From Escherichia phage vB_EcoS_VAH1: 64,000 nucleotides of DNA. The notes below the pieces were generated by a model. It saw nothing but the letters and a program-made list of their open reading frames with translations. It searched no databases and was not told where the DNA came from. Made by a program: the position numbers and the translations under genes. This document shows positions 19,056 to 51,462 of the stretch, in pieces; the first letter of the stretch is position 1, and every line of letters begins with the position of its first letter. The stretch lies in sequence record MK373792.1; one strand, 5' to 3'.

Positions 19056-19370
19056 TTACAGATCGGGGCGTTCATCTTCGAAACAGCCTGAGCTAATATC
19101 TTCTCCGAATCCTACGAAGCCATCAAATTCATCATTTGAAATACCCATAATCATTGCTTCCATTTTTCTAATCTCCGAAATTTTCATGCCTGCTTTACTA
19201 TTCTTAAAGTGTTTGCGAGGATTCCCGCACATCCAACAAGAACAGATACAAGGAGTAGTAGTGATAATACCTAACCGTTTAGGGCTTTCTTCATGTGGGA
19301 AGACTGTCCAGTATTTCTTGCGGTTGTTCTTCACACGTTGCCGGTGATGACGTCTTAATGCTCGATCCAC
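19056..19370 (-). CDS. Cys-rich hypothetical protein
   Basis: TPCICSCWMCGNP cluster. Confidence 0.4.
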   Translation of the reverse strand: MDRALRRHHRQRVKNNRKKYWTVFPHEESPKRLGIITTTPCICSCWMCGNPRKHFKNSKAGMKISEIRKMEAMIMGISNDEFDGFVGFGEDISSGCFEDERPDL

Positions 19371-19451: not shown

Positions 19452-19821
19452 TTACATCGCCTGAGTAAATGTACGACTAATAACGTCGTTCTGTTGTTCA
19501 CGCGTCAGTGCGTTAAAACGTACAGCGTACCCTGAAACACGAATGGTTAACTGAGGGTATTTTTCAGGATGTTTCTGTGCATCCAAAAGCTGATCACGAC
19601 TTAACACATTGACATTTAGGTGTTGACCGCCTTCAATTTGAGGGGCGACTTCCACCTTGACTTCACGAAAGGATTCGGGGTCAAAATGGGGTGTAATACC
19701 TTCTAGATCTTCAACTAGAACTTTTTGTTTAAGTTCACCATCTTTAGAATATAATTGGATAATCTGATTATTATGAACAATATTAATTACGCCAGATTTA
19801 AGATTTTGGTACGCTTTCATT
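19452..19821 (-). CDS. autonomous glycyl radical cofactor (GrcA/YfiD-like)
   Basis: [11 protein letters not shown]...[21 protein letters not shown] matches E. coli GrcA including RVSGY; start moved to ATG ~19821 (AGGAG RBS) because track start overlaps a tRNA. Confidence 0.8.
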
Positions 19822-28502: not shown

Positions 28503-28691
28503 GTTGTTTCTCCAGTTTCATTTTTAATAGTTTACAGATGAAATCAACGTCTTCATCTGTGCCTAAGTCTCTATCCTCAAGAGTCGCCTTGAAGTTTTTC
28601 GTCAATTCCATGAGGATGACTTCCCTAGAACGACGTGTTGGCGGAGGTGGATGTCTATACATCTTATTTCCTTAATTTGGTAGGGATTATA

Positions 28692-29375: not shown

Positions 29376-29398
29376 AGTTTATGACTTTCTAATTAAGC

Positions 29399-29476
29399 TG
29401 GTGGCTCCCCGAGGATTCGAACCTACGTACCTTCCAGTTATGAGCTGGGTGCTCATACCATATGAGCTTGAGAACC
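29399..29476 (-). tRNA. tRNA-Met type (anticodon CAT); third CAT tRNA, could be the Ile2 (lysidine) species
   Basis: D-arm GCTC...GAGC, arm CCCAG-CTCATAA-CTGG, T-arm GTAGG-TTCGAAT-CCTCG. Confidence 0.55.
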
Positions 29477-29482
29477 AGAATT

Positions 29483-29571
29483 TGGCGGAAGAAGTGGGAA
29501 TCGAACCCACAAGGCTATATTTCAAACCGACAGATTAGCAATCTGCTGCAATACCGTTATGCTATTCTTCC
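29483..29571 (-). tRNA. tRNA-Ser (anticodon GCT), type II
   Basis: Perfect acceptor GGAAGAA/TTCTTCC, arm GCAGA-TTGCTAA-TCTGT, long variable arm. Confidence 0.6.
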
Positions 29572-29592
29572 GAATTTATAAGATATATTATA

Positions 29593-30162
29593 TTAGAAAT
29601 TTAGCTTCATGGCAAGAAAATTTTTCAAGTTTTCGGTAGACATCTCATCCACATCTATAGGAGAAACAAACCCATTTAATTGTCTAGCAAACTTTTCACC
29701 AGCAGGATCATTATCCCCAACAGCTACCAATTTAAAAGGTAGTAATTTCAATTGCTTTAACAATGCTTTTCCGGGGGAAGAACCCAACATTGCCAGGGCT
29801 GGATAACCAGCGTTATGTAACGCAACTGCCTTAAATACAGATTCAGCAATCAATACTACTTTTTCATCTCCATTGAGAGTTTCTAGTCCCCATACACACT
29901 GTGTAGTAGAATAAGTAAAATATCTAGCTTCAAGGGGGCACTTACCATGACCTTTTGGAGCAGAAGGATTATAAGTCTGATAGCCTCTCAACATCCCAGA
30001 GAAGTCATACAATGGGACTGTTAGCCATCCTTCCGGGCTTAACCAGCAATGATATTTATCTGTATCAAACCCTCTAGATAAGAGATGTTCTGTTAGTTCA
30101 TCAACAGTCATACTAGATTCCTCTCTCAAATTTATAAATATATTATACAGAGAATTTAGCAT
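29593..30162 (-). CDS. stand-alone Toprim-domain protein
   Basis: VVLIAESVFKAVALHNAGYPALAMLGS...KLVAVGDNDPAGEKFA matches DnaG-type Toprim; no zinc finger or helicase part. Confidence 0.5.
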   Translation of the reverse strand: MLNSLYNIFINLREESSMTVDELTEHLLSRGFDTDKYHCWLSPEGWLTVPLYDFSGMLRGYQTYNPSAPKGHGKCPLEARYFTYSTTQCVWGLETLNGDEKVVLIAESVFKAVALHNAGYPALAMLGSSPGKALLKQLKLLPFKLVAVGDNDPAGEKFARQLNGFVSPIDVDEMSTENLKNFLAMKLNF

Positions 30163-30280
30163 TCAAGCAATTGAATTTTTTAACTTTTTAGAGGAAAATC
30201 ACAGGATGCTTAAGGGTAGCAGGTAAGTGGTCAGGACCGAAATTTGTGACCCCACTAAAAATCTGGGGGCAATTTTTAAA

Positions 30281-30320
30281 GACCCCTTGACATTTTCGCT
30301 GGGGTAGTGTAAAGTATATG
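30281..30320 (+). promoter_or_regulatory. sigma70-like promoter for the plus-strand island
   Basis: TTGACA at ~30281, ~17-18 nt spacer, TGn + TAAAGT; AGGAGG RBS before ATG at 30368. Confidence 0.5.
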
Positions 30321-30367
30321 TTATGGATGAGTGATCAAAGAGACACACATTTTCTATATACTAGGAG

Positions 30368-31360
30368 GTGTCAAAAATGACAGAAGAAGTAGCTAAGAGT
30401 CCTGAGACCGTCGCTAGCGTTGCAGCAGAACTGCACCGTCACGAGGAATCAGATAAGAAAAAGTGGGAGAAGGTCAGAGCCTACGAAGAAAAACATCGTG
30501 AACACGATGATGAAGAAGATGACGATGAGCATTGTCATAAATATGGAAAACATAAAATGCAAGAACCAGTAAACGTATTTACTAGTGGCTTCCCTGGCCT
30601 ACTTGGTGGTTACCCAGCAAACGCAAGTGCTTTCGGTGGCGAAGGTATGGGACTATTCGGAGCTATCCTAATCGGTGCTCTATTAACAGGCGGGTTCGGT
30701 GGTTTCGGTGGATTCGGTGGACGTGGTGTAGTTGGTGATGGTACCGCAGTTGATGCAGTACTTCAGAACCAAGATACCGCTAGTATTCTAGCAGCTATTA
30801 ACACTACTCGTACAGAAGCTAACCAGGGTACTGGAGCTGTTTTAAGCGCAGTTAACAATGGTTTTAGCCAGACATCCCAAAACCAGAGCCGTGATACTCA
30901 GTCTGTACTAACTACGATCTATGGTACAGGTGCTAATCTGTCTAATCAGATCTGCCAGGAAACTCGCAACGTTATTCAGGGTCAGTTCGATCTTTCTCGC
31001 CAGATTGATCAATCTTTCGCAGCTAACCAGATAGCTCGTGCACAAGATAAGTTTGATTCTGCACAGATCGCTTTCCAGCAGACTTTACAAACTAATAACC
31101 AGTTTGCCGCTGTTCAGGCTCAGATGTGTGCTAACCAGAACTCTCTGGAACGTCAGATCGCTGAATGTTGCTGTGAACTTCAGACTGCGATCGCTGGTGT
31201 AACTACTGCGCGTATTCAGGATGAGTTAGATGCATGTCGCCTACGTGAAGCAATCGCTGCGGGTAACGGTGCTAACGGTCAGGTAATTAATCAAATCGCT
31301 GTAAGTCTTGGTGCTATCACTCAGACTCTGGCTGGTCTGCAGGCTAAACTGCCGGCTTAA
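30368..31360 (+). CDS. acidic/His-rich N-domain + glycine-zipper TM segment + Gln/Asn/Ala-rich helical C-domain protein; function unknown
   Basis: DDEEDDDEH; GLFGAILIGALLTGGFGGFGGFGG; Q/N/T-rich tail with CCC cluster; codon usage unlike neighbours. Confidence 0.55.
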   Translation: MSKMTEEVAKSPETVASVAAELHRHEESDKKKWEKVRAYEEKHREHDDEEDDDEHCHKYGKHKMQEPVNVFTSGFPGLLGGYPANASAFGGEGMGLFGAILIGALLTGGFGGFGGFGGRGVVGDGTAVDAVLQNQDTASILAAINTTRTEANQGTGAVLSAVNNGFSQTSQNQSRDTQSVLTTIYGTGANLSNQICQETRNVIQGQFDLSRQIDQSFAANQIARAQDKFDSAQIAFQQTLQTNNQFAAVQAQMCANQNSLERQIAECCCELQTAIAGVTTARIQDELDACRLREAIAAGNGANGQVINQIAVSLGAITQTLAGLQAKLPA

Positions 31361-31381
31361 TATTAAGGGGAGGAGCCCATT

Positions 31382-31798
31382 ATGAGTAAATATGGTTTTG
31401 TAAATAACGGACTTAATCAAAGTATGGGCTCCCAGCAGCCCATTCCGGGTCTGGATAACCCCTACTTACAACAATTGCAACAGCGTTTAGCAGAAGCGCA
31501 ACAGATGCAGCAACAACTCCAGCAAAACCCTGGAAGTGTGAGTCCTATGCAAATGATGCAGCAAATGAGCGGGCAGTCGCAAATGCCTCAACAAATGCAG
31601 CAACAGGTGCCGCAGCAGCAAGCTCAGCAGCAAACCCAACAACCGCAGGTTTCTGCGGAAGGACAGGCAGTACTAGCCCTTTTCGAAGACTTCGCAAAGA
31701 CAGAGGATGGTAAGCAGCTTGTATCACTTATGGGTAAGTTTAATAGCTTCTGCCAAAGCCAGGTTGCAAAAGCTCAAAATAGTGGTAATAACTCCTAA
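31382..31798 (+). CDS. Gln/Met-rich low-complexity (prion-like) protein
   Basis: QQLQQRLAEAQQMQQQLQQNP...MQMMQQMSGQSQMPQQMQQQVPQQQAQQQTQQ; GGAGG RBS. Confidence 0.5.
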   Translation: MSKYGFVNNGLNQSMGSQQPIPGLDNPYLQQLQQRLAEAQQMQQQLQQNPGSVSPMQMMQQMSGQSQMPQQMQQQVPQQQAQQQTQQPQVSAEGQAVLALFEDFAKTEDGKQLVSLMGKFNSFCQSQVAKAQNSGNNS

Positions 31799-31807
31799 GG
31801 AGGAATT

Positions 31808-32002
31808 ATGTGTTGCAGAAAATCTGTTTCGTGCTGCCCAATGCCTGTAGCACGTTGTTGCTCTCCAGCAATGTTTACGCAAATACCGGCGTTCAATCCG
31901 TTTGCCTTTAAGCCTACTCTTATCCTGCCCCCTAGAGTAGATTTTCAGTCAAGATTGGCCTCCCGTATGGGTGGTTGCTGTAATAAGAGTATATGGTTCT
32001 GA
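31808..32002 (+). CDS. small Cys-rich protein (CC pairs)
   Basis: MCCRKSVSCCPMPVARCCSP...GGCCNK; AGGAGG RBS. Confidence 0.35.
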   Translation: MCCRKSVSCCPMPVARCCSPAMFTQIPAFNPFAFKPTLILPPRVDFQSRLASRMGGCCNKSIWF

Positions 32003-32018
32003 AGAACCAAACAATAAA

Positions 32019-32053
32019 GCCCCTAAGTCTTTCGACTAGGGGCTTTTCTTTTA
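32019..32053 (+). terminator. rho-independent terminator closing the plus-strand island
   Basis: GCCCCTAAGTC...GACTAGGGGC hairpin followed by TTTTCTTTT. Confidence 0.6.
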
Positions 32054-32060
32054 TCTTAAA

Positions 32061-32097
32061 TACAGAAAAGCCCTGCGCTCTCCAGGAAACGCAGGGC
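32061..32097 (-). terminator. rho-independent terminator for the SPFH gene (convergent)
   Basis: GCCCTGCG...CGCAGGGC 8-bp stem with T-run on the minus strand. Confidence 0.6.
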
Positions 32098-32122
32098 TTA
32101 TTTCAGATGTTACATGCGGGTA

Positions 32123-33070
32123 TTATTTATTACGCATATCCATAATCATTTGGCCATCATAGCCAGTGCCAACCACAGTCTGCGGTACACCACCTTGGTA
32201 TTTCTGAGCACGAATCATTTCAACTTCCAGTTGCTTCCAGCGAATCATCTCAGGAGTAATGGTACGTTGCAACGCGGCGTTAGCTTCAGCTTCTTTCTTA
32301 GCTGCGTACAGTTTGGCATCTGCGTCACGCTCATTGGCAATAGCTTGGTTATTACGAGCTTCGCGATCTGCTTCTGCTTGTTTAACCTTCTGCTGTGCTT
32401 CTTGTTCAACACGAGCCAGTTCAGCTTTCGCAGCATTAACTTGCTCTTCACGAACTTTGGTATTCTGTACCTGTTCCATGATTACCGGTGGCAAAGTAAT
32501 ATCCTGAAGGAATACCTGCTTAACTGTATAACCATATGGGCGTGCATACTCTTCAACTTCCTGTTGAATTGCAGTTTGCAATTGAGCCTGAATTTTAGCA
32601 TCAAACAAATCTTGTGCTTTAGGTACAGACTTACCAAACTCACGAATAGTAGACAGTAATTTTTCAGTTACATATTTATCTAGTGCTTGATCCTGGGTGC
32701 CTGCGTTAATACGGTTAATCGGTGCCTTAGAACCATCAAATTGTAACATAACAGTCAGGTCAACAGTGGATTTAAACTTATCTTGGCTAGGAACCTGAAG
32801 TTTATCTAATTTTACAGCAATATCTTTTGTACTAAAAGTATCGAAAGATGCAAATGGGTTTACAAGATGGAAACCAGGTAATACTGGGTTAGGATCTACT
32901 TTACCTAGAAATGTTTGGGTTTTAACCGTACCATCAGAAACAATAGTATATGAATTAAAAGCTAGGATTAAACCTGCTAAACCAACTACAGCACCAATAC
33001 CCCAACGTTTAATAGTGCGAATTACTTTTTGCTCAGAAGTCAGTTCTTTCATATTTTTAGTATTAAACAT
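32123..33070 (-). CDS. SPFH/Band-7 (prohibitin/stomatin/HflKC-like) membrane protein
   Basis: N-terminal TM (WGIGAVVGLAGLILAF), SPFH-like core, long Ala/Glu/Gln coiled-coil tail. Confidence 0.7.
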   Translation of the reverse strand: MFNTKNMKELTSEQKVIRTIKRWGIGAVVGLAGLILAFNSYTIVSDGTVKTQTFLGKVDPNPVLPGFHLVNPFASFDTFSTKDIAVKLDKLQVPSQDKFKSTVDLTVMLQFDGSKAPINRINAGTQDQALDKYVTEKLLSTIREFGKSVPKAQDLFDAKIQAQLQTAIQQEVEEYARPYGYTVKQVFLQDITLPPVIMEQVQNTKVREEQVNAAKAELARVEQEAQQKVKQAEADREARNNQAIANERDADAKLYAAKKEAEANAALQRTITPEMIRWKQLEVEMIRAQKYQGGVPQTVVGTGYDGQMIMDMRNK

Positions 33071-33104
33071 ATATTTCCTTTGTTTTAGTTACAGTTAATA
33101 AAAT

Positions 33105-33179
33105 TGGCCGAGGTGACAGGATTCGAACCTGCATAAAGGAATTTAGAAGACTCCTGCCTCTCCCTTAGACTACACCCCG
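33105..33179 (-). tRNA. tRNA-Arg (anticodon TCT)
   Basis: Acceptor CGGGGTG/CACCTCG, arm GGAGT-CTTCTAA-ATTCC, T-arm GCAGG-TTCGAAT-CCTGT. Confidence 0.55.
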
Positions 33180-40524: not shown

Positions 40525-41057
40525 TAATAAGTAACCAATTCCTGTACAAATCGCAGGCTGTTATCACTGTTTGCGCCAACTGCATAGACTAATCGAGTGG
40601 ATTCATAGTTATAATCCAGTATTATACTATCTAGGTGTATATCTGCCTCTAGCTTCTGTTCGCTAAAGATTGTAGATACAAAAGCACTTTCTATATGCCC
40701 ATGTTGGTACATTTCTAGAAGAAGATTAGCTCCGCCTAGAACTACTGTTTGCTGATCTTTTAGAAAGGTAGGTAATGTATCACCTATCATTGATATGGGA
40801 GTGTAAATATCATGTGTAATATCGTCTGGTAGTGGACGATCAGCACGAATAAATAGGTCAGAAGCTCCAATCATACGTTCCCTAACGGCATATGGAAGAG
40901 CTAAATAAGTACCTGCCCCAATAATAATATTATCAGGATTTAGTACATCTAATTGTGAATAAAAAGCATCTAGTTCTTCTTTAAAAGAACCCCAGGGAAG
41001 CTTACCTCGGAGGCCGAACTCCCCATTCGGCCCAACTGCATACATTGCTGTAATCAT
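40524..41057 (-). CDS. frd: dihydrofolate reductase
   Basis: FGLRGKLPW N-terminal motif, ~177 aa, directly upstream of thyA. Confidence 0.8.
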   Translation of the reverse strand: MITAMYAVGPNGEFGLRGKLPWGSFKEELDAFYSQLDVLNPDNIIIGAGTYLALPYAVRERMIGASDLFIRADRPLPDDITHDIYTPISMIGDTLPTFLKDQQTVVLGGANLLLEMYQHGHIESAFVSTIFSEQKLEADIHLDSIILDYNYESTRLVYAVGANSDNSLRFVQELVTY

Positions 41058-42199
41058 AGGAAATCTCCAAATTCATTGCCCAGATCTTTTAGAGTATCAG
41101 TAGAGGTCTCAGTTACCTGACCTACACGGTAGGCTGCACCAATCTGGATTTCTTGTGGAGCAGGCTGTAGAGAGGTAGTATCCAACCAGTTCATGATCCA
41201 CGGAATAGGGTTTTTAGTGATTACTGGTAAGTGACTAGGCCATTCTACGCCAATGTGCATAAACGCGTTGCGTCCCACAAAGTACAAGTATTCTTCTAGA
41301 AGTTCTGCATTCAAACCAATCAGACTACGACCTTTGAAGATGAAATGACCCCATTCAATTTCAGTTTTCAGAGTTTTCAGGAGCTGTGCTGGTGCTTTAG
41401 CCACTGCTTCATCTACCAGATCTTTGTCAAACTGCTGGAACATAATCTGGATGATTGTTTTAGACATCTGAGTATGTAGGGCTTCATCTTTAGCAATCAA
41501 TTGCAGATTTTTAGCAATACCTTGCAGAATATCGTTCTCTGCTAACGCAAAGGTACATGCAAAGGATGCGTAGAACTGCATTGCTTCCAGACCGTAGATT
41601 GCAAAATAAGCGTCTAATAACTTAGCCTGAGTTTCACGTTTAACTTCAGGAAACTCTGTTTCTGGGTAAGTATTATCACCACGATGATCGCGTACTGCGA
41701 TGAAATACTGACCTAACTGGTACAATTCATCGAACAGTTCAACAGAATCAGCGATACGTGCGAATGCTTCTTGGTTTTTAGTTACAGAATCAATAAATTC
41801 TGCCGGATCAGTCAGCACATTACGGATAATATTGCTATACGCACGACTATGCAGGTCTTCAAAATAGCTCCACTGCTTGAGCATACCTTCCAATTCTGGA
41901 CGACTTACAAGCGGCATAATAGCTGCTTCCGGGGCACGACTGATAAAGGAATCAGTTTGAGTCTGCCATGCTAAGTTCAGGAGTGTAATTTCCTGAATTT
42001 CACGTGGGAGATTAGGCCATTGTTTCTTATCTGCTTCCAGACTGATTTCAGTTTCAGTCCAAAATTGAGAGCGTTGCAGAAGTGCCAGACGTTCTAGTTC
42101 TGGATGTGCTACACGTACATAATCTGCGATACCGAGAGAATCTCCCAGGAAAAGGTCAGCGTTAGTATGATCCCAATTCAGGTTTAGTAAAGTAGTCAT
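41054..42199 (-). CDS. nrdB: ribonucleotide reductase class Ia small subunit
   Basis: Colinear with E. coli NrdB incl. RDEALH iron-ligand motif, SNPIPW, C-terminal tail. Confidence 0.9.
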   Translation of the reverse strand: MTTLLNLNWDHTNADLFLGDSLGIADYVRVAHPELERLALLQRSQFWTETEISLEADKKQWPNLPREIQEITLLNLAWQTQTDSFISRAPEAAIMPLVSRPELEGMLKQWSYFEDLHSRAYSNIIRNVLTDPAEFIDSVTKNQEAFARIADSVELFDELYQLGQYFIAVRDHRGDNTYPETEFPEVKRETQAKLLDAYFAIYGLEAMQFYASFACTFALAENDILQGIAKNLQLIAKDEALHTQMSKTIIQIMFQQFDKDLVDEAVAKAPAQLLKTLKTEIEWGHFIFKGRSLIGLNAELLEEYLYFVGRNAFMHIGVEWPSHLPVITKNPIPWIMNWLDTTSLQPAPQEIQIGAAYRVGQVTETSTDTLKDLGNEFGDFL

Positions 42200-42305
42200 T
42201 GATTTTCCTCTTTCTCACTATTTCAGGAATATTATAGCAAATCTGGTAGCGATTAGCAAGTAAAATTTCAAAGAAAAAGGAGACCCGAAGATCTCCTTGT
42301 TTTTA

Positions 42306-44636
42306 TTAAATAGTACAACCACCGGATGCACAACCGGCTGCTTCTTCTCCAGCACCTCCACCATTTGCGGTATTGAAGTTAGCATAATACCAAGTTTTCC
42401 ACCCATACTTAACAGCAGTCATGAAATCACGAACTACTACTGGGCCAGGAATTATTTCATTCTCAAACTTGGTGTAGTCATAGTACATATTCGTACTGAT
42501 AGACTGACTGAAGAATTTCTGCATAGTTGCTACCCACTTGATCCACTCGATACGATCTACATCATAAGCCAGTTTATAGCTCATTAACGTTTCCCAATCG
42601 GTTGCACCCGGAGCAATTGCAATTACTTTATTAACTGCACTACCCTTGATAGATACAATCTTACGAGGTGGTTCGATAGAGTTAGTAACGCCTAGCAGAA
42701 CAGAAGAGCTTTCTCCTGGCATCTGAGCAGTCAGAACAGAGTTCCGCATACCATATTTCAGAATATCTGCACGCAGAGACTCCCAATCCATTTCTAGACC
42801 TACGGATACCAGTTCATCAACAGTTTTCTTGTACGTGTCGATTACCAGAATTCCTTTAGATGGTTTAGTACGATCAAACCACTCACATGCACCCTGTTCT
42901 CTAGCTAGGCGTACAGAGGCTTTATGCAGGAAGTAGGACAGTTTTTCAGCCTCACGGTGAATCCAGTTACGGGCTTCAATACCTTCGTAAGCCAGACCTT
43001 CTGCTGCCATTGCACCTGCTGCGTTCATTAGGCCAATACCAACATTACGACGTTTCTTAGCTGTGTATTCCATAGTTGGGAACGGATAATCCTGAATTTC
43101 AATGATGGTATCAACGAATTTCAGAAGAATATAGCAAGTCTTTTCCCACTCAGCTAGAGATTCCATGCGTCCAAGTACAACACCACCTAAGTTACACAGA
43201 GATACTTCACCAATATCCTCCGGCTTCATTTGATCAAGCTGCTCTTTTGTCTTATACAGCTCTGTGATATGATGGAACGGGCGTGTAGGCTGAGTAATTT
43301 CAACACAAAGGTTTGTCATACGGATCGGATCAAGGAAATTACCATGACGATTAGATTCCCCAATGTGATGAGCATACATACGTCCTGTTTCCATTCGGAT
43401 ACGTAGCCAAGTATCTAGGATTTCTTTTGCAGAGACTTTAGGAGCTGCTGGAACTGTTTTTCCTTCGTGGTCGATCTTTGTAAGAGATGCCACACGTTTC
43501 TCCGCTGCCACATAGATTTCTTCAAATTTAGCCTCGTCATCACTATAAAACGCTTCATGAACTTCTGGAGCATAGAAGTATGACATTAGCGTAATATCTT
43601 CATTTTTCAGATAACGTTTTAACAAAAGATTGTTGAAGCTCAGAGAATAATCCATCTTATCGATTTTATTCTCATCTGTAGCACGTTGTTGCTTAACCTG
43701 CATCAATTGAATGATTTCAGGGTCAAAGTATGGATAAGACACTGTAGCAGAACCACCACGAGTTTGCTGAGTATTGGCCTTTACTGAGCGGTCAATGTGT
43801 CGATAATATGGCAGTTTTCCGGAATGCGGGAATGCCCCATTTCGCACCGGATCAGCAATTGATCTGCTTTCAAGATGATACCCGATTCCCGCTCTGGCTG
43901 CGACCATTTTGAAGACGATGTGCTCGGCGGTGTCGATTGAATCCAACGTGTCAGTGGAATCCACGAGGCAGCAACTAGCAAATCCACGGTCACTAGAGCG
44001 CAGGCCAACCAGTGGCGGCGTAGGAACGTTGATTTTGTGGAGTGACATTGCGTTGTAGAGGTCGATTGCATCTAGAATTGTCCAGTTAGGTTGAGATAGC
44101 ATCGCCATTGCCATACCCATGTAGGCAAACTGCGGAGTTTCATAAATTTCACCAGTGGCTATGTTACGCCGGGAATACTTATCAAAGAACTGCTTCAGTC
44201 CACCACTAGTAAAAAGACGGTCACGATCATGGTCGATAACCTGATTCAGAGCTTCAAATTGCTCATCGGTAATCCATGCACTCATGTCTTCCCATGCACC
44301 TACGCTAACCATATGGTCGTGGAAGAAGCGCAGAGAAGGCGGTTCGAAAGAGTCATAAAGGCGTTTACGCATTTGCGCAAGACGTAATTCCTTTGCTGGC
44401 ACATCGTATGCTGGGTTATCTTTGATAAGACTTTCAGCAGCTTTAATTAATGCGTCCATCAGAGTGTCGGAATCTACAACCCCTTTAGGTAGAGTTTTTT
44501 GAGCAGCCATAGTAATGGCTGACCAACTTACATCAACTGTTTTGCAACCATACTCTGCCCAACCATTGAGTTTTTCAGGAGCAAAGTCTTCTACAGTACC
44601 GTCACGTTTAATTACTTTTTCAATGCGATGGCTCAT
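42306..44636 (-). CDS. nrdA: ribonucleotide reductase class Ia large subunit (start trimmed to MSHRIEKV; track ORF extends to 44741)
   Basis: ATP-cone N-terminus; FEPPSLRFF, SSCCLVD, NLCVEI, C-terminal Cys pair; colinear with E. coli NrdA. Confidence 0.9.
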   Translation of the reverse strand: MSHRIEKVIKRDGTVEDFAPEKLNGWAEYGCKTVDVSWSAITMAAQKTLPKGVVDSDTLMDALIKAAESLIKDNPAYDVPAKELRLAQMRKRLYDSFEPPSLRFFHDHMVSVGAWEDMSAWITDEQFEALNQVIDHDRDRLFTSGGLKQFFDKYSRRNIATGEIYETPQFAYMGMAMAMLSQPNWTILDAIDLYNAMSLHKINVPTPPLVGLRSSDRGFASCCLVDSTDTLDSIDTAEHIVFKMVAARAGIGYHLESRSIADPVRNGAFPHSGKLPYYRHIDRSVKANTQQTRGGSATVSYPYFDPEIIQLMQVKQQRATDENKIDKMDYSLSFNNLLLKRYLKNEDITLMSYFYAPEVHEAFYSDDEAKFEEIYVAAEKRVASLTKIDHEGKTVPAAPKVSAKEILDTWLRIRMETGRMYAHHIGESNRHGNFLDPIRMTNLCVEITQPTRPFHHITELYKTKEQLDQMKPEDIGEVSLCNLGGVVLGRMESLAEWEKTCYILLKFVDTIIEIQDYPFPTMEYTAKKRRNVGIGLMNAAGAMAAEGLAYEGIEARNWIHREAEKLSYFLHKASVRLAREQGACEWFDRTKPSKGILVIDTYKKTVDELVSVGLEMDWESLRADILKYGMRNSVLTAQMPGESSSVLLGVTNSIEPPRKIVSIKGSAVNKVIAIAPGATDWETLMSYKLAYDVDRIEWIKWVATMQKFFSQSISTNMYYDYTKFENEIIPGPVVVRDFMTAVKYGWKTWYYANFNTANGGGAGEEAAGCASGGCTI

Positions 44637-44780
44637 TTGGCTTTCCTTTTTATAGTTATCAGGATTTAAGGAATATTCTACTTTATTATTGGTCATTAGG
44701 CAAATAAAATTTTCTGATAGAAAAGGCCCGAGTATTTTCATACCCAGGCCCTGTATATTACCAGTCTAGTTTTTGGCCAC

Positions 44781-44979: not shown

Positions 44980-45741
44980 TTACACCTTCCCCATGTCTTT
45001 AAAAATATCGTAGAATGCTTTAGACTCAGCAGAACGAACGTTATCAATCAATTCGATCATTGAGAATGGAGCATTTTCATATTTCTCATAAACTTCCATA
45101 AGAAGTGCTAGACCTGAGTCACCTTTAATGTCTTTCTGAGCTATATCTCCGCAGATAATTAAACGGCAGTCTTGTCCTACACGAGTTAGGAGACAAACCA
45201 TTGCCTCAACGGAAATATTCTGAGCTTCATCGACAATTACATAGGAGTTGTTGAAAGTTCTGCCACGAGCATGTTCTATAGCCAAAAATTTAATTTTCTG
45301 ACGTTCGACATATCCCTTATATGCATGATCACCGATGGCCCATTTCATACCATCAGCTATTGGCTCTAACCAAGGCTCTAGCTTTTCTGCTAGATCACCA
45401 GGAAGCATACCAAGAGACTTACCTAGAGGTTCATTAGGACGTACGAGAATTACTTGCTCAATATCTGAGTGAATGTCTACGAGTTCCTGAGCTGCAAGAA
45501 CAGACGGGATAAAGGTTTTACCAGTACCTGGCTCTCCGATACCCACAGTCACTGTGTTGTTCTTGATCATATTGATATATGATTTTTGCTCGCGGTTTTT
45601 ACCTACTAGGGATTTAGCAACTGGATTAGCGTAATCATTAGAAAAATCAGCCTGAATTACGTTATTCTCATATTTGTTGCCACGCTTTCTTGAACCATTG
45701 CGGTTCTCTCTTTTTTGACGTGCTTTTCCCATAAATAACAC
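44980..45741 (-). CDS. phoH: PhoH-like ATPase
   Basis: Walker A GEPGTGKTF, Walker B VIVDEAQN, typical PhoH core. Confidence 0.85.
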   Translation of the reverse strand: MLFMGKARQKRENRNGSRKRGNKYENNVIQADFSNDYANPVAKSLVGKNREQKSYINMIKNNTVTVGIGEPGTGKTFIPSVLAAQELVDIHSDIEQVILVRPNEPLGKSLGMLPGDLAEKLEPWLEPIADGMKWAIGDHAYKGYVERQKIKFLAIEHARGRTFNNSYVIVDEAQNISVEAMVCLLTRVGQDCRLIICGDIAQKDIKGDSGLALLMEVYEKYENAPFSMIELIDNVRSAESKAFYDIFKDMGKV

Positions 45742-45945
45742 TCCTATAGTGTACTTCGCTTCTAACAGAGGATCAACAAAGAGATCTTGTTTATCAACTT
45801 ACAAATATATTATAACAAGGTTTACAGCAAAAAGCAAGTATAATTTTAAATAAACCTATGATATTGCTTTTAAGTAAAAAATTTACTTGCTTATAAAGGT
45901 AGAAATATGATACTAGATAATCATTTATTTATATGTAAAAATACT

Positions 45946-45959
45946 ATGCTGTATAGCAT
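45946..45959. promoter_or_regulatory. perfect 14-bp palindrome ATGCTGTATAGCAT in the divergent control region
   Basis: Self-complementary; lies between leftward and rightward promoters. Confidence 0.4.
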
Positions 45960-46009
45960 CAATAAAAATTGATAAAAATCAAAAGTCAAATAGTATTAGA
46001 AAAATGTAG

Positions 46010-46038
46010 TTGACGTATGGGGTGGAATTATGTATAAT
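46010..46038 (+). promoter_or_regulatory. sigma70 promoter for the rightward gene block
   Basis: TTGACG - 17 nt - TATAAT; GGGAG RBS before ATG at 46060. Confidence 0.55.
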
Positions 46039-46059
46039 ATGTGAATTAGGGAGAATTTA

Positions 46060-46731
46060 ATGGTAAGAAAGAAAATAACTACAGAAGATGTGAACTTAGC
46101 ACTTGCTCCCAGAGGAATAATTATGCTAAGCACGTATATATCAGCTAAATCCAATGCTATATTTAAGTGCTCTAATGGGCATAGTTGGGAGGCTAGAGTA
46201 GATAATGTAAAAGGTGGGAGAGGTTGCCCTTATTGTGCTAGTCGTACTTTAGATCTTAAAGAGGTAAATGAATCCTTAGCTGCTCGTGGAATAAAGATGG
46301 AAGGTAAATACATCAATTCTAAGAGTAAAATTATGTTCAGCTGTGAGAATAATCATAGGTGGGAGTCTACACTTGATAGTGTTAGAAACCATAGTTCTGG
46401 TTGTCCTATATGTTTATTAGAGAAGGATAATTATCCTACTAACGTATATATTTTAATAAGTAATGTGGGAACCAAAATAGGAGTGTCTAGCAGAACTAAA
46501 GATAGACTCAGAGATATTAAAACTTCTTCTAACATACATGATTTAAAAATATTTAAGGAATATAGCTTTTCAGATAGATCAAAAGCTATACGTATTGAAA
46601 GAGAGGTCCATTTACAGTTTAAGGAATATAATTGTCAGTACAAAGATTTTGATGGTGCTACAGAATTTTTTAATATTGAGCCAGAAGTAGTAGCAAGGTT
46701 TATTGAGGAAATAATTAATGACAGAGAATGA
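46060..46731 (+). CDS. zinc-ribbon repeat + T5orf172 (GIY-YIG-like) protein
   Basis: CSNGHSWE...GCPYCA and CENNHRWE...GCPIC ribbons; C-terminus matches 888..1268 and 14690..15301. Confidence 0.6.
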   Translation: MVRKKITTEDVNLALAPRGIIMLSTYISAKSNAIFKCSNGHSWEARVDNVKGGRGCPYCASRTLDLKEVNESLAARGIKMEGKYINSKSKIMFSCENNHRWESTLDSVRNHSSGCPICLLEKDNYPTNVYILISNVGTKIGVSSRTKDRLRDIKTSSNIHDLKIFKEYSFSDRSKAIRIEREVHLQFKEYNCQYKDFDGATEFFNIEPEVVARFIEEIINDRE

Positions 46732-48544
46732 ATTAATTGAGAATTGCAAAGGTCTGCTCACTCTAACTGCGGATAAGGACTTACAGCATAATAATGCTAA
46801 TAAGCCTAGTGAGATGTTCCATACTCAAAGAGACTTATTAGCTGGGGAAATTAACAAGTATTTAGTATCGCAAGAATTACCTAAACACCTGTTAGACGCA
46901 CATAATCTAGGTAAAATACACATTCATGACATGGACTACAGAGCACAAGGGTACACCAACTGTTGCTTAGTAGATCTAGGCGGTATGCTGAAAAATGGCA
47001 CTAAAATTGGTAACGCAAATATTGAAACTCCTAAATCCATAACTACTGCATGCGCGATTACTGCTCAGATTATTGCTCAAGTATCGGGTGCTCAGTATGG
47101 TGGCACTTCTATTGATCGTATCGATGAGGTTTTAGCCCCCTATGTCAGAAAGTCTTATGATAAGCACCTGGGTCGTGGTCTACGTTGGCTCAAGGATGAA
47201 AGGAAAGCTGCTGTATATGCTACTGAACTTACTGAAAAAGAGTGTTATGATGCATTCCAAGCCCTAGAGTATGAAACTAATTCATTATTTAACTCTAACG
47301 GACAGACTCCTTTTGTTACGCTTGGCTTTGGGCTAGGACAGGGGTGGGAGGAAAGGATGATTCAGAAAGCCATCCTCCAAAACCGTATTAAAGGTTTAGG
47401 TGCTGCTGAGTCAACCCCTATCTTCCCTAAACTAGTATTCTCAGTTAAAGAAGGGTTAAATAAAAATCCAGGCGATCCTAACTATGATATAAAACAGCTA
47501 GCACTTGAGTGTTCTGCTACCCGTATGTACCCGGACTATTTAAGTTACGAGAAAGTTGTAGCTGTTACTGGTGATTTTAAAGCACCTATGGGTTGTCGTA
47601 GTTTTTTATCCGCTATTCCTTCTGGGGAAACTGCCGGCCGTAATAATCTGGGTGTAGTGTCTATTAATCTACCTATGGTTGCTGCTGAGGCAGATGGGGT
47701 TTTTGAAGATTTCTGGGATATTCTGGACAAATATGTGGATGAGGCTTTTGAAGCTCATGATTTTTTCTTGGATAGACTTAAGAAAGTGAAGGCTAAACAA
47801 GCCCCTATTCTTTATATGCACGGTGGTTTTGGTGTGCGTTTAGATGGGGAAGAGTATGTATGGCCAATTTTTGAGGGTAGATCTTCTGTATCTCTTGGGT
47901 ATATTGGGGTCTATGAGATGTGCCAAATAATGTTTAGTTTACCGCAGACTCATAGGGACTGTATTGAATTTACAGAGGAAGTTCTTACTCACCTAAAAAA
48001 TCGTTGCGAAGTTAAAGCTAATGAGACTAATCTTGGGTTTAGCTTGTATGCTACTCCTAGTGAGTCTCTATGTAATCGCTTTAATAAACTACTGGAACGT
48101 AGGTTCCCTGAGTATTCTTGGCTAACAGATAAAGGCTATCTCACTAATAGTCATCATTTGGACGTAAGGGAGAAGGTAGCTCCGGATACTAAATTTGAGT
48201 ATGAAGCTCATTTCACCAAAATAGCTAATGGTGGTAATATATCGTTTGTGGAACTACCACAAATGAAAAAGTTCCATAAAGCTCTTGAATACGTAGTAGA
48301 TAAGGGATTAGAATGTAGCCATTATATTGGTGTTAATATACCAATTGATGAGTGCTTCAACTGTGGGTATATGGGTGAATCTGTTGCCTCTGAACGTGGG
48401 TTTGTATGTCCAAGTTGTGGGTCTGAAGAAATAGAGGTTACACGTAGGGTTTGCGGGTACCTGGGATCCCCGGGCAGTAGGCCTTTCAATTCTGGGAAAC
48501 AAAAAGAAGTGCTTGGTAGAGTAAAACACTTAAATCTTAAGTAA
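46718..48544 (+). CDS. nrdD: anaerobic ribonucleoside-triphosphate reductase (class III)
   Basis: C-terminal CFNCGY...CPSCGS zinc ribbon and RVCGY glycyl-radical motif. Confidence 0.88.
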   Translation: MTENELIENCKGLLTLTADKDLQHNNANKPSEMFHTQRDLLAGEINKYLVSQELPKHLLDAHNLGKIHIHDMDYRAQGYTNCCLVDLGGMLKNGTKIGNANIETPKSITTACAITAQIIAQVSGAQYGGTSIDRIDEVLAPYVRKSYDKHLGRGLRWLKDERKAAVYATELTEKECYDAFQALEYETNSLFNSNGQTPFVTLGFGLGQGWEERMIQKAILQNRIKGLGAAESTPIFPKLVFSVKEGLNKNPGDPNYDIKQLALECSATRMYPDYLSYEKVVAVTGDFKAPMGCRSFLSAIPSGETAGRNNLGVVSINLPMVAAEADGVFEDFWDILDKYVDEAFEAHDFFLDRLKKVKAKQAPILYMHGGFGVRLDGEEYVWPIFEGRSSVSLGYIGVYEMCQIMFSLPQTHRDCIEFTEEVLTHLKNRCEVKANETNLGFSLYATPSESLCNRFNKLLERRFPEYSWLTDKGYLTNSHHLDVREKVAPDTKFEYEAHFTKIANGGNISFVELPQMKKFHKALEYVVDKGLECSHYIGVNIPIDECFNCGYMGESVASERGFVCPSCGSEEIEVTRRVCGYLGSPGSRPFNSGKQKEVLGRVKHLNLK

Positions 48545-48550
48545 GCTAAT

Positions 48551-48590
48551 CAGCCGGGTTGCTAGTCGACCTGGCTTTTATTTTATTTGC
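48551..48590 (+). terminator. rho-independent terminator after nrdD
   Basis: AGCCGGG...CCTGGCT hairpin followed by TTTTATTTTATTT. Confidence 0.5.
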
Positions 48591-48615
48591 TTTCAGCCAA
48601 AAATTTATATATAAT
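48587..48615 (+). promoter_or_regulatory. T5-type early promoter (P_N25-like)
   Basis: TTGCTT - 17 nt - TATAAT, leader ...ATAAATTTGAGAGGAG before ATG 48644. Confidence 0.6.
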
Positions 48616-48643
48616 AGATTTATAAATTTGAGAGGAGAAAGCT

Positions 48644-48925
48644 ATGAGCGAATTGCTTCCTAAAGTAGATGTCTCCCATCTTGGGGAGCCTAGTGAAGAA
48701 CGTAAGGCTCTAGATTGGTTGGGCGGATTTGATTATCGTCGTGTTGTTGCAACATGGAATGATAAGAAAGTTAAGAAGTTTCGGGTACATTATGTAGGTA
48801 AAGACAAGTGGCTCTGGATTGATTATGAAGAATCGAAGGGGTCTACTAAGGCTGTGAAAATTTATCGTATGTATGGGTATTATTATGCTCACTGTGATAA
48901 GAATGAATTTACAGTACAGAACTAA
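48644..48925 (+). CDS. hypothetical protein
   Basis: 93-aa ORF behind promoter. Confidence 0.45.
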   Translation: MSELLPKVDVSHLGEPSEERKALDWLGGFDYRRVVATWNDKKVKKFRVHYVGKDKWLWIDYEESKGSTKAVKIYRMYGYYYAHCDKNEFTVQN

Positions 48926-49138: not shown

Positions 49139-49328
49139 GGGTTTAAACGCCGCTTTGGAAAACGCATTAATGCAGCACTGGGAAACTGGCTATAAGGATG
49201 GTGTTGAATCCTGCGCTACTATGCTAGAAGTTATTGCTAATACCTTAATGGAGAAAGGCAATAAAGAATTAGCTGAGCTATTAGACAGTATTGGGCAAAA
49301 CTTCAGAGAACAGGTGAAAAATGCGTAG
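49107..49328 (+). CDS. hypothetical small protein
   Basis: 73-aa ORF. Confidence 0.35.
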   Translation: MAFSKPMLPDKGLNAALENALMQHWETGYKDGVESCATMLEVIANTLMEKGNKELAELLDSIGQNFREQVKNA

Positions 49329-50136
49329 ATTAATTGTTATTAGCGGTGCAGGTTTGAGTGTTGAAAGTGGTGTACGAGCTTTTCGTACTGATACTGCTAG
49401 TGGTAAAGCATTGTGGGATGATTATGACTTAGAAGAGGTATGTAATATTCATGCCTTTCGTGGTAATTTTTATCATAAAACCCACACGTTTTACAACAAA
49501 CGTCGTGAAGAGTTAGAAACTGTTGAACCCAATCTTGCACACTTGCGTATTGGTGAATGGTATAAGAAATATCCAGGTCAAGTAGTAAACTTGACTACCA
49601 ACGTTGATGACCTTATTGAGCGTGCTGGCGTTCCACATAGTGACATTCTGCACATTCATGGGTATTTAAAAGAGGTTGTTGTAGCTGATAGCTACAATAG
49701 TAGTAATAAACGAATTATTGATGTTGGGTATAGCTCTATTGACCCAGATGATTATAAATGGGTTAAACCTAATGTAATCTTCTTCGGGGAACATGCTCCA
49801 GCATATGCAGAAATGTACAATGTTTTTGATGGTATTACCAGTCAAGATATGATCATTGTGGTTGGTTGCTCTAACCAAGTAATTAACTTCTACTGGGAAT
49901 TATTTCCTGTTCTTAATCTGACTGCTGCAAAACTTATGGTAGTTAACTACTATGATAGTGCTCTAGCGGTGGAACCAGGCTATCAAGGTATGACTCGTAG
50001 TGAGATGTACCAGCTGGAAGAACGTGGTATCCCTTACTGGAGTAAAGGTGCGATAGATGCTTTCAATGATCCTGATTTTATTGCTCGTGTAGAAGCTCAT
50101 TTAGAGGGTAGACCTTATGTGTCGGGAAATAAGTAA
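49321..50136 (+). CDS. Sir2-family (sirtuin-like) NAD-dependent protein lacking the zinc-ribbon cysteines
   Basis: GAGLSVESGVRAFR, TTNVDDLIERAG, LHIHGYL, PNVIFFGE, IIVVGCSNQV in sirtuin order. Confidence 0.65.
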   Translation: MRRLIVISGAGLSVESGVRAFRTDTASGKALWDDYDLEEVCNIHAFRGNFYHKTHTFYNKRREELETVEPNLAHLRIGEWYKKYPGQVVNLTTNVDDLIERAGVPHSDILHIHGYLKEVVVADSYNSSNKRIIDVGYSSIDPDDYKWVKPNVIFFGEHAPAYAEMYNVFDGITSQDMIIVVGCSNQVINFYWELFPVLNLTAAKLMVVNYYDSALAVEPGYQGMTRSEMYQLEERGIPYWSKGAIDAFNDPDFIARVEAHLEGRPYVSGNK

Positions 50137-50629
50137 TACTCCAATTATTTTTCTAGATATTGATGGGGTGCTCAATTCGAGCATCTCCCACCATCATGCG
50201 CCTGATGATGAAAAGATTTTCTTTGGAAGTGACTGGGTTTTCAAACCGCTTCTCAAGGCTTTTCAGGACTTTATTCGTCCTTCTCCAATAATGATTGTTG
50301 GGGTATCTTCATGGTTCTCTGTCAGGAATGAGATGGAGAACGTTCAGATTATGACCGGATTAGATCTTATCGATCGTTTTCTAGGTACAACGGATTTTAC
50401 TGGTGGTGGGCTATCTAGGGGTAATTCTGTTCTTCGCTTCGTTGAAAAGCATAAGCTCAAACATTGGTGTGTGCTGGATGACGCTGGTGCTATGATGTAT
50501 CAGTATCCAACGGTTATAGTCAACGGTAGAACTGGAATAAATCTTCAAGATTTAAGAGCTGTTAGCTATATGTTAGAATTTAGTCCAGATCTTGAAATGT
50601 GTAAAGCCCTACAACAATTTAAGGTATAA
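50117..50629 (+). CDS. HAD-superfamily phosphatase-like protein
   Basis: IIFLDIDGVLN (DxDG motif I) near N-terminus. Confidence 0.5.
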   Translation: MCREISNTPIIFLDIDGVLNSSISHHHAPDDEKIFFGSDWVFKPLLKAFQDFIRPSPIMIVGVSSWFSVRNEMENVQIMTGLDLIDRFLGTTDFTGGGLSRGNSVLRFVEKHKLKHWCVLDDAGAMMYQYPTVIVNGRTGINLQDLRAVSYMLEFSPDLEMCKALQQFKV

Positions 50630-50631
50630 AT

Positions 50632-51060
50632 ATGTTCAATAATGTATTCTCTAAAGAAGCTAACCCAATATTGGTTAATTTTTGGCGTACTCTTCCAGCC
50701 AACCTGTACAATGAGGCTATTAATGCTCTGAAAATATGGTGTGAGAATAATGAAATCTCCTTTGCTTTTAAGGGTGAGATTGAAGAAGCTCCCTGTATTG
50801 GTTTAATTGTGCAGGTAGAGGATGGTCTGGAAGAGATTGTCGGCTGGAAAGAGTTGGATGAAATGGGGTTGGTTTTTGCATTAAACTATAAGCTATTTAT
50901 GCCCAATAAACACCGTATTGTTGTTAATTATAAAACCAGTGAATCTCCGGGCTTTCAAGTTAATGAACATTACGGTTGGTCTTACTCACCGGAAGAAGTA
51001 AATGATGGTATCCAGAAACTTCGTCGTTTTGGTTATCAAATTCCTGGTTTAACCGCCTAA
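50632..51060 (+). CDS. hypothetical protein, tandem paralog A
   Basis: Shares EEAPCIG...W.EL.EMGL..ALN..LF.P pattern with 51070..51462. Confidence 0.45.
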   Translation: MFNNVFSKEANPILVNFWRTLPANLYNEAINALKIWCENNEISFAFKGEIEEAPCIGLIVQVEDGLEEIVGWKELDEMGLVFALNYKLFMPNKHRIVVNYKTSESPGFQVNEHYGWSYSPEEVNDGIQKLRRFGYQIPGLTA

Positions 51061-51069
51061 GGGGGCACA

Positions 51070-51462
51070 ATGGAACAAGTATATTGGCGTCAGATTGATC
51101 CTAGTTTGGTGAAGCGTGCGGAGAAGCTGCTACAACGTTGGTTGGGGGTAAGACAAGCTTCCTTCACTTTTCCGGAGCAGCAAATAGACGATCCCTGTAT
51201 TGGTGTTTTCCTATCAGGCTACGCTAGGGAATGGGAACTGGATTGGAATGAATTGTCTGCTATGGGTTTAATTGTTGCACTAAATTTCTCTTTGTTCCAT
51301 CCACGTGGTTTTGCCATATGTTGTGTGCCTGATGATGGTTGTTCGCCCCATCTTTTACAGGTGGAAGATGATATTTGGGAGTACACTCCAGATATTCTCA
51401 AAGAAGCTAAAGAACAATTAAATCGTGTTGGGATTTATGTTCCAGGCCTGAATGATGAATGA
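51070..51462 (+). CDS. hypothetical protein, tandem paralog B
   Basis: DDPCIG...WNELSAMGLIVALNFSLFHP; paralog of previous gene. Confidence 0.45.
   Translation: MEQVYWRQIDPSLVKRAEKLLQRWLGVRQASFTFPEQQIDDPCIGVFLSGYAREWELDWNELSAMGLIVALNFSLFHPRGFAICCVPDDGCSPHLLQVEDDIWEYTPDILKEAKEQLNRVGIYVPGLNDE

What the first reader, a model, noticed from the sequence alone, without database searches (positions are those of the whole stretch)
46718..48925. NrdD without an adjacent NrdG activase
Class III RNR needs a radical-SAM activase (NrdG, CxxxCxxC). No ORF with that motif is next to nrdD or elsewhere in the window; downstream genes are small unknowns. The phage either uses host NrdG or the activase is encoded outside this window.
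Basis: partly seen in the sequence, partly recalled or inferred. Interest (0 to 1): 0.4.

Follow-up and report, generated by a model that had tools for sequence, protein, structure and literature searches.

The report
Phage NrdD lacking its own activase
This T5-like phage carries an intact, strongly conserved anaerobic ribonucleotide reductase gene but no gene for the enzyme that switches it on, so it most likely borrows the host's activase; this gene pattern is already documented for T5-like phages.

Summary
The window comes from a T5-like coliphage or Salmonella phage (Demerecviridae). Its closest complete relative is ESCO40, at 95% nucleotide identity. NrdD is real and intact at 46718-48544 (+), 608 aa. 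The finding's end coordinate, 48925, also takes in a separate 93-aa ORF of unknown function.

No NrdG exists in the window in any of the six frames. None exists in the complete genomes of ESCO40 or T5 either, so "activase outside the window" is very unlikely.

The gene is not a relic. Its dN/dS is 0.014-0.028, and the catalytic cysteines, the zinc site and the glycyl-radical loop are all kept.

Three divergent NrdD alleles in T5-like phages all keep the Gly loop RVCGYLG, identical to E. coli NrdD. nrdG is present in 5426 of 5426 complete E. coli genomes. Activation by pre-existing host NrdG is therefore the best explanation. It is inferred, not demonstrated.

The phage also encodes a GrcA-like glycyl-radical protein whose loop is identical to host PFL, again with no activase.

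The nrdD-only pattern in T5, SPC35 and EPS7 was reported by Dwivedi et al. in 2013. Verdict: real, ordinary, already known. Only the activation route remains untested.

The parts
46718..48544 (+). nrdD: class III (anaerobic) ribonucleoside-triphosphate reductase catalytic subunit, 608 aa, with no N-terminal ATP-cone
   Evidence: Pfam NRDD 3.1e-157 and Gly_radical 7.9e-14, with no ATP-cone hit. NCBIfam NF006732 793 bits > 657, covering profile positions 103-707 of 712. The alignment shows the NCC and PMGCRSF cysteines, the CxxC...CxxC zinc site and the RVCGYLG Gly loop all conserved. dN/dS is 0.014-0.020 against ESCO40 and SP3.
46010..46038 (+). sigma-70-like promoter candidate upstream of the endonuclease-like ORF and nrdD
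   Evidence: TTGACG-17-TATAAT, 11 of 12 matches. This is a consensus match only. T5 has an annotated promoter at the equivalent place before nrdD.
46060..46731 (+). free-standing homing-endonuclease-like ORF (223 aa) whose end overlaps the nrdD start by 14 nt; present in only some relatives
   Evidence: Pfam DUF4379, T5orf172, MUG113 and CapR. phrog_681 endonuclease 4e-50. Many relatives match the query only from window position about 46618 onward.
48552..48576 (+). intrinsic-terminator-like hairpin directly after the nrdD stop codon, closing the transcription unit with no room for an activase gene
   Evidence: 10-bp stem with 6 GC pairs, followed by a T-run. T5 has an annotated terminator at the same relative position.
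48644..48925 (+). 93-aa ORF of unknown function, lying inside the finding's coordinates; not an activase
   Evidence: phrog_7953, unknown function, 8.8e-66. No Pfam or NCBIfam hit. It contains a single cysteine. At this position T5 has an apparently unrelated 126-aa gene, T5.100 (similarity judged by eye, not tested), and Klebsiella phage Sealy has only a 70-aa CDS. The AlphaFold model is uninformative (pLDDT 42).
19455..19820 (-). GrcA/YfiD-like small glycyl-radical protein (122 aa), a second glycyl-radical protein with no phage-encoded activase
   Evidence: Pfam Gly_radical 3.6e-18. The best NCBIfam match is GrcA TIGR04365 at 121.5 bits, below its cutoff of 170. The C-terminal loop RVSGYAV is identical to that of E. 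coli PFL. The T5 homologue is T5.056. tRNA-Met at 19834-19909 fixes the start at 19820.
19056..19370 (-). 104-aa Cys-rich ORF holding the only CxxxCxxC in the window; not a radical-SAM enzyme
   Evidence: Motif scan. phrog_4499, unknown function. No Pfam or NCBIfam hit and no PDB sequence match. hhalign against the NrdG profile gives 0.13% probability. It is conserved in T5-like phages, with distant relatives in a few jumbo phages.
41054..44741 (-). nrdB (41054-42199) and nrdA (42306-44741): the phage's own aerobic class Ia reductase. With phoH (44980-45741) they form the known T5-type nrdD-phoH-nrdA-nrdB arrangement.
   Evidence: ORFs. The syntenic genes are annotated in ESCO40 and T5 at 95% nt identity. 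The arrangement is described in PMC3653736.

Best explanation
The phage makes only the catalytic subunit of a class III ribonucleotide reductase. It relies on the host's own NrdG, already present in cells growing without oxygen, to install the glycyl radical.

NrdG acts catalytically, using S-adenosylmethionine and reduced flavodoxin, so the host's pre-existing amount can serve the extra phage NrdD. The phage enzyme lacks the ATP-cone, so it would not be subject to ATP-cone-mediated dATP feedback inhibition, and it adds dNTP-making capacity during anaerobic infection.

What is shown: the gene is intact and under strong selection. No activase gene exists in the window or in complete genomes of relatives. 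The Gly loop is identical to the host's. The host gene is universal in E. coli.

What is inferred: the actual activation by host NrdG, and the benefit of lacking the ATP-cone.
For: 1. No NrdG in six frames of the window, of the whole ESCO40 genome or of the whole T5 genome. The T4-like control scored 1.6e-71. None is annotated in those genomes.

2. NrdD evolves under strong purifying selection, with dN/dS 0.014-0.028 in three allele-internal comparisons. All catalytic, zinc-site and radical residues are kept.

3. Three NrdD alleles of T5-like phages are only 61-72% identical to one another. All keep the 7-mer Gly loop RVCGYLG and 11-12 of 12 residues of VTRRVCGYLGSP, as in E. coli NrdD. Several phages that carry their own NrdG have drifted: T4-like RTCGYLG, rV5-like RVSGYLS, ICP1 RACGYIS.

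4. A 2026 review states that activase specificity depends on the Gly loop, and that known cross-activation occurs between enzymes with identical or near-identical loops (PMC13450708).

5. nrdG is present in 5426 of 5426 complete E. coli genomes.

6. There is a precedent. Phage T4's small glycyl-radical protein Y06I receives its radical from host PFL-AE (PMC8683613). This phage has a homologous GrcA-like gene with the host PFL loop and again no activase.

7. The record counts agree. 2910 phage records hold an NrdD relative and 2321 hold an NrdG relative. The difference, 589, is about the number of T5-like records, 588.
Against: No experiment on activation of a T5-type NrdD was found.

Overall identity to E. 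coli NrdD is only 52%. Determinants of activase recognition beyond the Gly loop are poorly defined.

Loop identity does not discriminate cleanly. The FelixO1-like phage Moogle and the Vibrio Demerecviridae phage GRLPWR also have RVCGYLG yet encode their own NrdG.

From my own recollection, not verified here: Young et al. 1994 (J Biol Chem) found that T4 NrdD needed T4 NrdG when expressed in E. coli. That would argue that host NrdG does not serve every phage NrdD.

T5's A1 protein is annotated as degrading host DNA and shutting off host gene expression. Only NrdG made before infection would therefore be available.

The exact source genome of the window could not be examined beyond the 64 kb.
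Confidence: 0.8

Rival explanations
1. The activase is encoded by this phage outside the 64-kb window.
For: The window covers only about 60% of a roughly 110-kb genome, and the exact source genome is not in the collections (best match 95% nt).
Against: The complete genomes of ESCO40 and T5 have no NrdG by annotation or by six-frame profile search. The part missing from the window corresponds to structural genes, late genes and terminal-repeat genes in those genomes. Dwivedi et al. list T5, SPC35 and EPS7 as nrdD-only.
Confidence: 0.03
2. The phage nrdD is a decaying, non-functional remnant that needs no activase.
For: The T5 reference strain carries an in-frame 50-aa deletion that removes the conserved GRxSxSLGYIG segment. 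This shows the gene can be damaged without loss of viability in laboratory (aerobic) culture.
Against: In the window the ORF is full length with every functional motif intact. dN/dS is 0.014-0.028. The gene is kept in hundreds of T5-like genomes, in three divergent allele types.
Confidence: 0.05
3. Another host radical-SAM activase (for example PflA) or an unrecognised, non-homologous phage factor activates NrdD. Candidates for the phage factor are the Cys-rich 104-aa protein or a small ORF downstream of nrdD.
For: The window has one conserved small protein with a CxCxCxxC cluster next to the GrcA-like gene. Several conserved ORFs of unknown function follow nrdD.
Against: PFL-AE does not activate the RVCGYLG peptide. 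The Cys-rich ORF shows no relation to NrdG (hhalign 0.13%), and at 104 aa it is shorter than the 154-201 aa NrdGs examined here. It also occurs in jumbo phages, though whether it is linked to nrdD there was not checked. The ORF directly after nrdD differs between T5, Sealy and this phage, so it is not an obligatory partner. Structure predictions for both ORFs were uninformative.
Confidence: 0.05

Closest known systems
Phage T5 nrdD (T5.099) and the nrdD genes of T5-like phages such as DT57C, ESCO40, SPC35 and EPS7
   Same: Same locus and gene order: nrdB-nrdA-phoH on one strand, and nrdD, small ORFs and Sir2 on the other. No nrdG is present. The protein is 99.7% identical to DT57C NrdD and 99.0% to ESCO40 NrdD. 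The nrdD-only state is described in PMC3653736.
   Different: It is only about 61-62% identical to the OSYSP/T5 allele type. The T5 reference protein has a 50-aa internal deletion that this one lacks. An extra endonuclease-like ORF abuts the nrdD start here.
Phage T4 NrdD/NrdG (class III RNR with its own activase)
   Same: Similar length (605 vs 608 aa), no ATP-cone, and the same catalytic cysteines, zinc site and glycyl radical site. Identity is 51%.
   Different: T4-like phages carry nrdG immediately downstream of nrdD, and this phage has none. The T4-like Gly loop is RTCGYLG, whereas here it is RVCGYLG as in the host.
E. coli NrdD-NrdG
   Same: 52% identity. The 12-residue Gly-loop segment VTRRVCGYLGSP is identical. 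The best NCBIfam model is the enterobacterial-type NF006732.
   Different: The host enzyme has an N-terminal ATP-cone of about 100 residues (712 aa in total) and sits in an operon with nrdG.
E. coli YfiD/GrcA and phage T4 Y06I (autonomous glycyl radical cofactors)
   Same: Window ORF 19455-19820(-) has the Gly_radical domain and the PFL loop RVSGYAV. Like T4 Y06I, it is a phage-encoded glycyl-radical protein that depends on a host activase.
   Different: The N-terminal half is unrelated, and the score is below the GrcA equivalog cutoff (121.5 < 170). Its function has not been tested.

Membership tests
NrdD (class III RNR catalytic subunit) | Full-length match to curated NrdD models above their cutoffs | tested here: met
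   Pfam NRDD 525 bits (cutoff 26.2). NCBIfam NF006732 793 bits (657) and TIGR02487 533 bits (326).
NrdD (class III RNR catalytic subunit) | C-terminal glycyl-radical motif RVCGY | tested here: met
   The sequence ...EVTRRVCGYLGSPGSRPF... is present, with Pfam Gly_radical at 7.9e-14.
NrdD (class III RNR catalytic subunit) | Active-site cysteines (the T4 Cys79/Cys290 equivalents) and the C-terminal four-Cys zinc site | tested here: met
   TNCCLVDL, PMGCRSFL and CFNCG...CPSCG align with the T4-like and E. coli residues. The T4 residue numbering is from my own knowledge.
NrdD (class III RNR catalytic subunit) | Ribonucleotide reduction and glycyl radical formation | not testable with these tools
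   This needs biochemistry.
NrdG (radical-SAM activase of class III RNR) | An ORF matching an NrdG profile with the CxxxCxxC cluster motif, in the window or the genome | tested here: not met
   Six-frame hmmsearch with filters off gave a best window E-value of 1.2, against 1.6e-71 for the control. The same search was negative for the whole ESCO40 and T5 genomes. The only CxxxCxxC ORF is unrelated.
Self-contained phage class III RNR system (nrdD plus nrdG, as in T4) | Both genes encoded by the phage, usually adjacent | tested here: not met
   A terminator-like hairpin follows nrdD, the downstream ORFs are unrelated to NrdG, and no nrdG occurs in related complete genomes.
GrcA/YfiD autonomous glycyl radical cofactor (ORF 19455-19820, minus strand) | Small protein with a PFL-type Gly_radical domain that reaches the GrcA equivalog score | tested here: inconclusive
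   The Gly_radical domain is met (66.5 bits > 22.2) and the loop is RVSGYAV. GrcA TIGR04365 scores 121.5 bits, below its cutoff of 170.

The most novel reading that the evidence does not exclude
T5-like phages may carry an unrecognised factor that replaces or redirects a radical-SAM activase for their two glycyl-radical proteins, NrdD and the GrcA-like protein. One candidate is the conserved 104-aa CxCxCxxC protein next to the GrcA-like gene. Another is one of the small conserved ORFs after nrdD.

The evidence does not strictly exclude this, because these ORFs have no assignable fold or function.
Probability: 0.04. Interest if true: 0.75.

Novelty: already known. Interest (0 to 1): 0.2.

Why it matters
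An orphan NrdD means the phage's anaerobic dNTP supply depends on a host protein made before infection. This links phage productivity in the gut to the host's oxygen status and to nrdG.

It also offers a simple natural test of how far a glycyl-radical activase tolerates a foreign substrate that is only 52% identical but has an identical Gly loop.

None of this changes current understanding. The gene pattern has been published, and the host-activase explanation is the expected one.

Tried and rejected
**Literature.** Searches for experiments on T5 nrdD or nrdG found nothing specific. One search did not surface the T4 nrdG paper of Young et al. 1994, so I could not check my recollection of it.

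**Structure prediction.** AlphaFold models of the 93-aa ORF after nrdD and of the Cys-rich 104-aa ORF, each from a single sequence, were too poor to search with (pLDDT 42 and 41). No fold searches were run.

**PDB.** A sequence search with the Cys-rich ORF gave no match.

**Pfam scan of the whole window.** I prepared concatenated ORF sets for a scan of every ORF but did not submit them. The six-frame NrdG profile search and the motif scan already covered the question.

**Gly-loop identity as a discriminator.** It is only suggestive, because two phages that encode NrdG also have the host loop.

**The Cys-rich ORF as a mini-activase.** Rejected on length, on the absence of any family hit and on the hhalign result.
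Full report
**What the window is.** The region around the finding matches hundreds of T5-like phages of E. coli and Salmonella. The best complete relative is Escherichia phage vB_EcoS_ESCO40 (Demerecviridae, Markadamsvirinae, Tequintavirus). It matches at about 95% nucleotide identity over 24 kb, with the same gene order. The exact source genome is not in the collection.

**The observation.** The ORF at 46718-48544 (+) encodes a 608-aa protein.
- It matches Pfam NRDD (3.1e-157) and Gly_radical.
- It exceeds the curated cutoffs of NCBIfam NF006732 (793 vs 657 bits) and TIGR02487.
- The profile matches start near position 102-103 of the 712-718-residue models, and no ATP-cone is detected. The protein therefore lacks the N-terminal regulatory domain, as T4 NrdD does.
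- Alignment with the E. coli and T4-like proteins shows the active-site cysteines (TNCC, PMGCRSF), the CxxC...CxxC zinc site and the glycyl-radical motif all in place.

The finding's end coordinate, 48925, is not the end of nrdD. It is the end of the next gene, a 93-aa ORF (48644-48925) of unknown function (phrog_7953). A terminator-like hairpin at 48552-48576 separates the two, and a strong promoter-like site lies at 46010-46038. T5 has an annotated promoter and terminator in the same relative places.

**Is there an activase?**
- A six-frame scan for CxxxCxxC in every stop-free stretch of 50 aa or more found one hit only. It lies in a 104-aa ORF at 19056-19370 (-).
- That ORF has no Pfam, NCBIfam or PDB match.
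- It belongs to a phage family of unknown function (phrog_4499).
- It aligns to an NrdG profile only across the cysteine cluster, with 0.13% hhalign probability.
- It is also found in some jumbo phages.
- It is not a radical-SAM enzyme.

I then built a profile from seven diverse NrdGs: E. coli, T4-like RB27, Mordin, ICP1, an Enterococcus phage, a Clostridium phage and Lactococcus phage 949. I ran it with all filters off on the six-frame translations.
- The T4-like control scored 1.6e-71.
- Nothing in the window scored better than E = 1.2.
- Nothing in the whole ESCO40 genome scored better than E = 0.5.
- Nothing in the whole T5 genome scored better than E = 1.
- Neither genome has an annotated activase.

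The alternative "encoded outside the window" is therefore very unlikely.

**Is the gene alive?** Yes. Within allele types, dN/dS is as follows:

| Pair | dN/dS |
|---|---|
| window vs ESCO40 | 0.020 |
| window vs SP3 | 0.015 |
| ESCO40 vs SP3 | 0.014 |
| OSYSP vs T5 | 0.028 |

T5-like phages carry at least three NrdD allele types:
- the window/DT57C/ESCO40 type;
- a Klebsiella-phage type, 72% identical;
- the OSYSP/T5 type, 61-62% identical.

All three sit at the same locus and none has an nrdG. Long-term maintenance of an intact enzyme that cannot work without a glycyl radical implies that something installs the radical.

**How it most likely works.** All three alleles keep the 7-mer Gly loop RVCGYLG and 11-12 of the 12 residues of VTRRVCGYLGSP, as in E. 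coli NrdD. This holds even though the proteins are only 52-54% identical to the host enzyme overall.

Several phages that encode their own NrdG have drifted at this loop:

| Phage | Own NrdG | Gly loop |
|---|---|---|
| T4-like RB27 | yes | RTCGYLG |
| rV5-like APECc02 | yes | RVSGYLS |
| ICP1 | yes | RACGYIS |
| FelixO1-like Moogle | yes | RVCGYLG |
| Vibrio Demerecviridae GRLPWR | yes | RVCGYLG |

The last two have not drifted, so the signal is suggestive rather than diagnostic.

A 2026 review of glycyl radical enzymes states that activase specificity depends on the Gly loop. It also states that the few known cross-activations involve enzymes with identical or near-identical loops, and that PFL-AE does not act on RVCGYLG (PMC13450708).

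The host gene nrdG is present in all 5426 complete E. coli genomes.

The best explanation is that pre-existing host NrdG activates the phage NrdD. This is inferred, not shown.

Two further points are also inference:
- The activase is an enzyme rather than a stoichiometric subunit. This rests on the title of Tamarit et al. 1999, seen in a reference list.
- An enzyme without an ATP-cone would escape ATP-cone-mediated dATP inhibition, which is a plausible reason for the phage to supply its own catalytic subunit.

T5's A1 protein is annotated as degrading host DNA and shutting off host gene expression. NrdG would therefore have to be present already when infection begins, that is, in cells already growing anaerobically.

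**A supporting parallel in the same window.** ORF 19455-19820 (-) is a 122-aa protein.
- It has a Gly_radical domain (3.6e-18).
- Its best NCBIfam family is the autonomous glycyl radical cofactor GrcA (121.5 bits, below the 170 cutoff).
- Its loop, RVSGYAV, is identical to the PFL loop.
- Its T5 homologue is T5.056.

T4's counterpart, Y06I, is known to receive its radical from host PFL-AE (PMC8683613). This phage therefore encodes two glycyl-radical proteins, each with the host substrate's loop, and no activase for either.

PFL makes formate, which RNRdb lists as the class III reductant. The two genes may therefore serve one purpose. That link is speculation.

**Comparison with what is known.**
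- The nrdD-only state of T5-like phages is published. Dwivedi et al. 2013 write that many phages contain only nrdD along with nrdAB. They describe the nrdD-phoH-nrdAB region of T5, SPC35 and EPS7 (PMC3653736).
- RNRdb counted 30 phage NrdD entries against 21 NrdG entries in 2009.
- In the current phage collection, 2910 records hold an NrdD relative and 2321 hold an NrdG relative. The difference, 589, is close to the 588 T5-like records. The per-genus differences (Salmonella 272, Escherichia 121, Klebsiella 81) track the T5-like counts. This is a comparison of counts, not an intersection of lists.
- Within the family Demerecviridae, the Vibrio phage GRLPWR has a 724-aa NrdD plus an NrdG. The absence of nrdG is thus a feature of the enterobacterial T5-like branch, not of the whole family.

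**Verdict.** The feature is ordinary for this phage group and already described. What remains open is the experimental proof of cross-activation.

Noticed in passing
window 19455-19820 (-): GrcA/YfiD-like small glycyl-radical protein with the PFL loop RVSGYAV. It is a second glycyl-radical protein in a phage with no activase, and is homologous to T5.056.
   Followed up: yes
window 19056-19370 (-): Conserved basic and Cys-rich 104-aa protein (cluster CICSCWMC followed by GNPRK), directly downstream of the GrcA-like gene. Its function is unknown. Distant relatives occur in Erwinia, Serratia, Rhizobium and Edwardsiella jumbo phages.
   Followed up: partly
window 46060-46731 (+): Free-standing endonuclease-like ORF (DUF4379 zinc finger plus T5orf172/MUG113 domain) overlapping the nrdD start by 14 nt. 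It is absent or different in many otherwise near-identical relatives.
   Followed up: partly
window 45926-48173 compared with L015 (OSYSP) and T5: Allele mosaicism at nrdD. The flanks are 95-97% identical to OSYSP and T5, but the first 1.4 kb or so of nrdD is only 66-69% identical. NrdD proteins of T5-like phages fall into types only 61-72% identical to one another. This may be linked to the adjacent endonuclease gene.
   Followed up: partly
L012 3961-5685 (T5 reference, NC_005859.1 53961-55685): The NrdD of the T5 reference strain (574 aa) has an in-frame 50-aa deletion relative to the 99%-identical OSYSP protein. The deletion removes the conserved GRxSxSLGYIG segment, so the laboratory strain's enzyme may be inactive.
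   Followed up: partly
L017 4710-6884 and 9828-10310 (Vibrio phage GRLPWR): A Demerecviridae phage of Vibrio that does encode both a 724-aa NrdD and an NrdG (58% identical to E. coli NrdG), about 3 kb apart. All are annotated as hypothetical proteins.
   Followed up: partly
L005 3001-3471 (phage RB27, NC_025448.1): The annotated nrdG CDS starts at locus position 3079 (130 aa). The full ORF from 3001 (156 aa) aligns with E. coli NrdG from residue 1 and contains the CLHKCEGC cluster motif. The annotated start removes the motif's first cysteine, so the start is probably mis-set in that record.
   Followed up: no
window 49321-51462 (+): Downstream of nrdD lie a Sir2-family protein, a protein with the HAD domain of 'Swiss Army Knife' RNA-repair proteins (PF18143), and two paralogous DUF7415 proteins. 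This conserved cluster has an unclear role.
   Followed up: no
window 19834-33179 (-): 21 tRNA genes interspersed with small ORFs and several endonuclease-like ORFs, which is the usual T5-type tRNA region. A stretch at 30001-32000 has higher G+C (0.448) and plus-strand genes.
   Followed up: no
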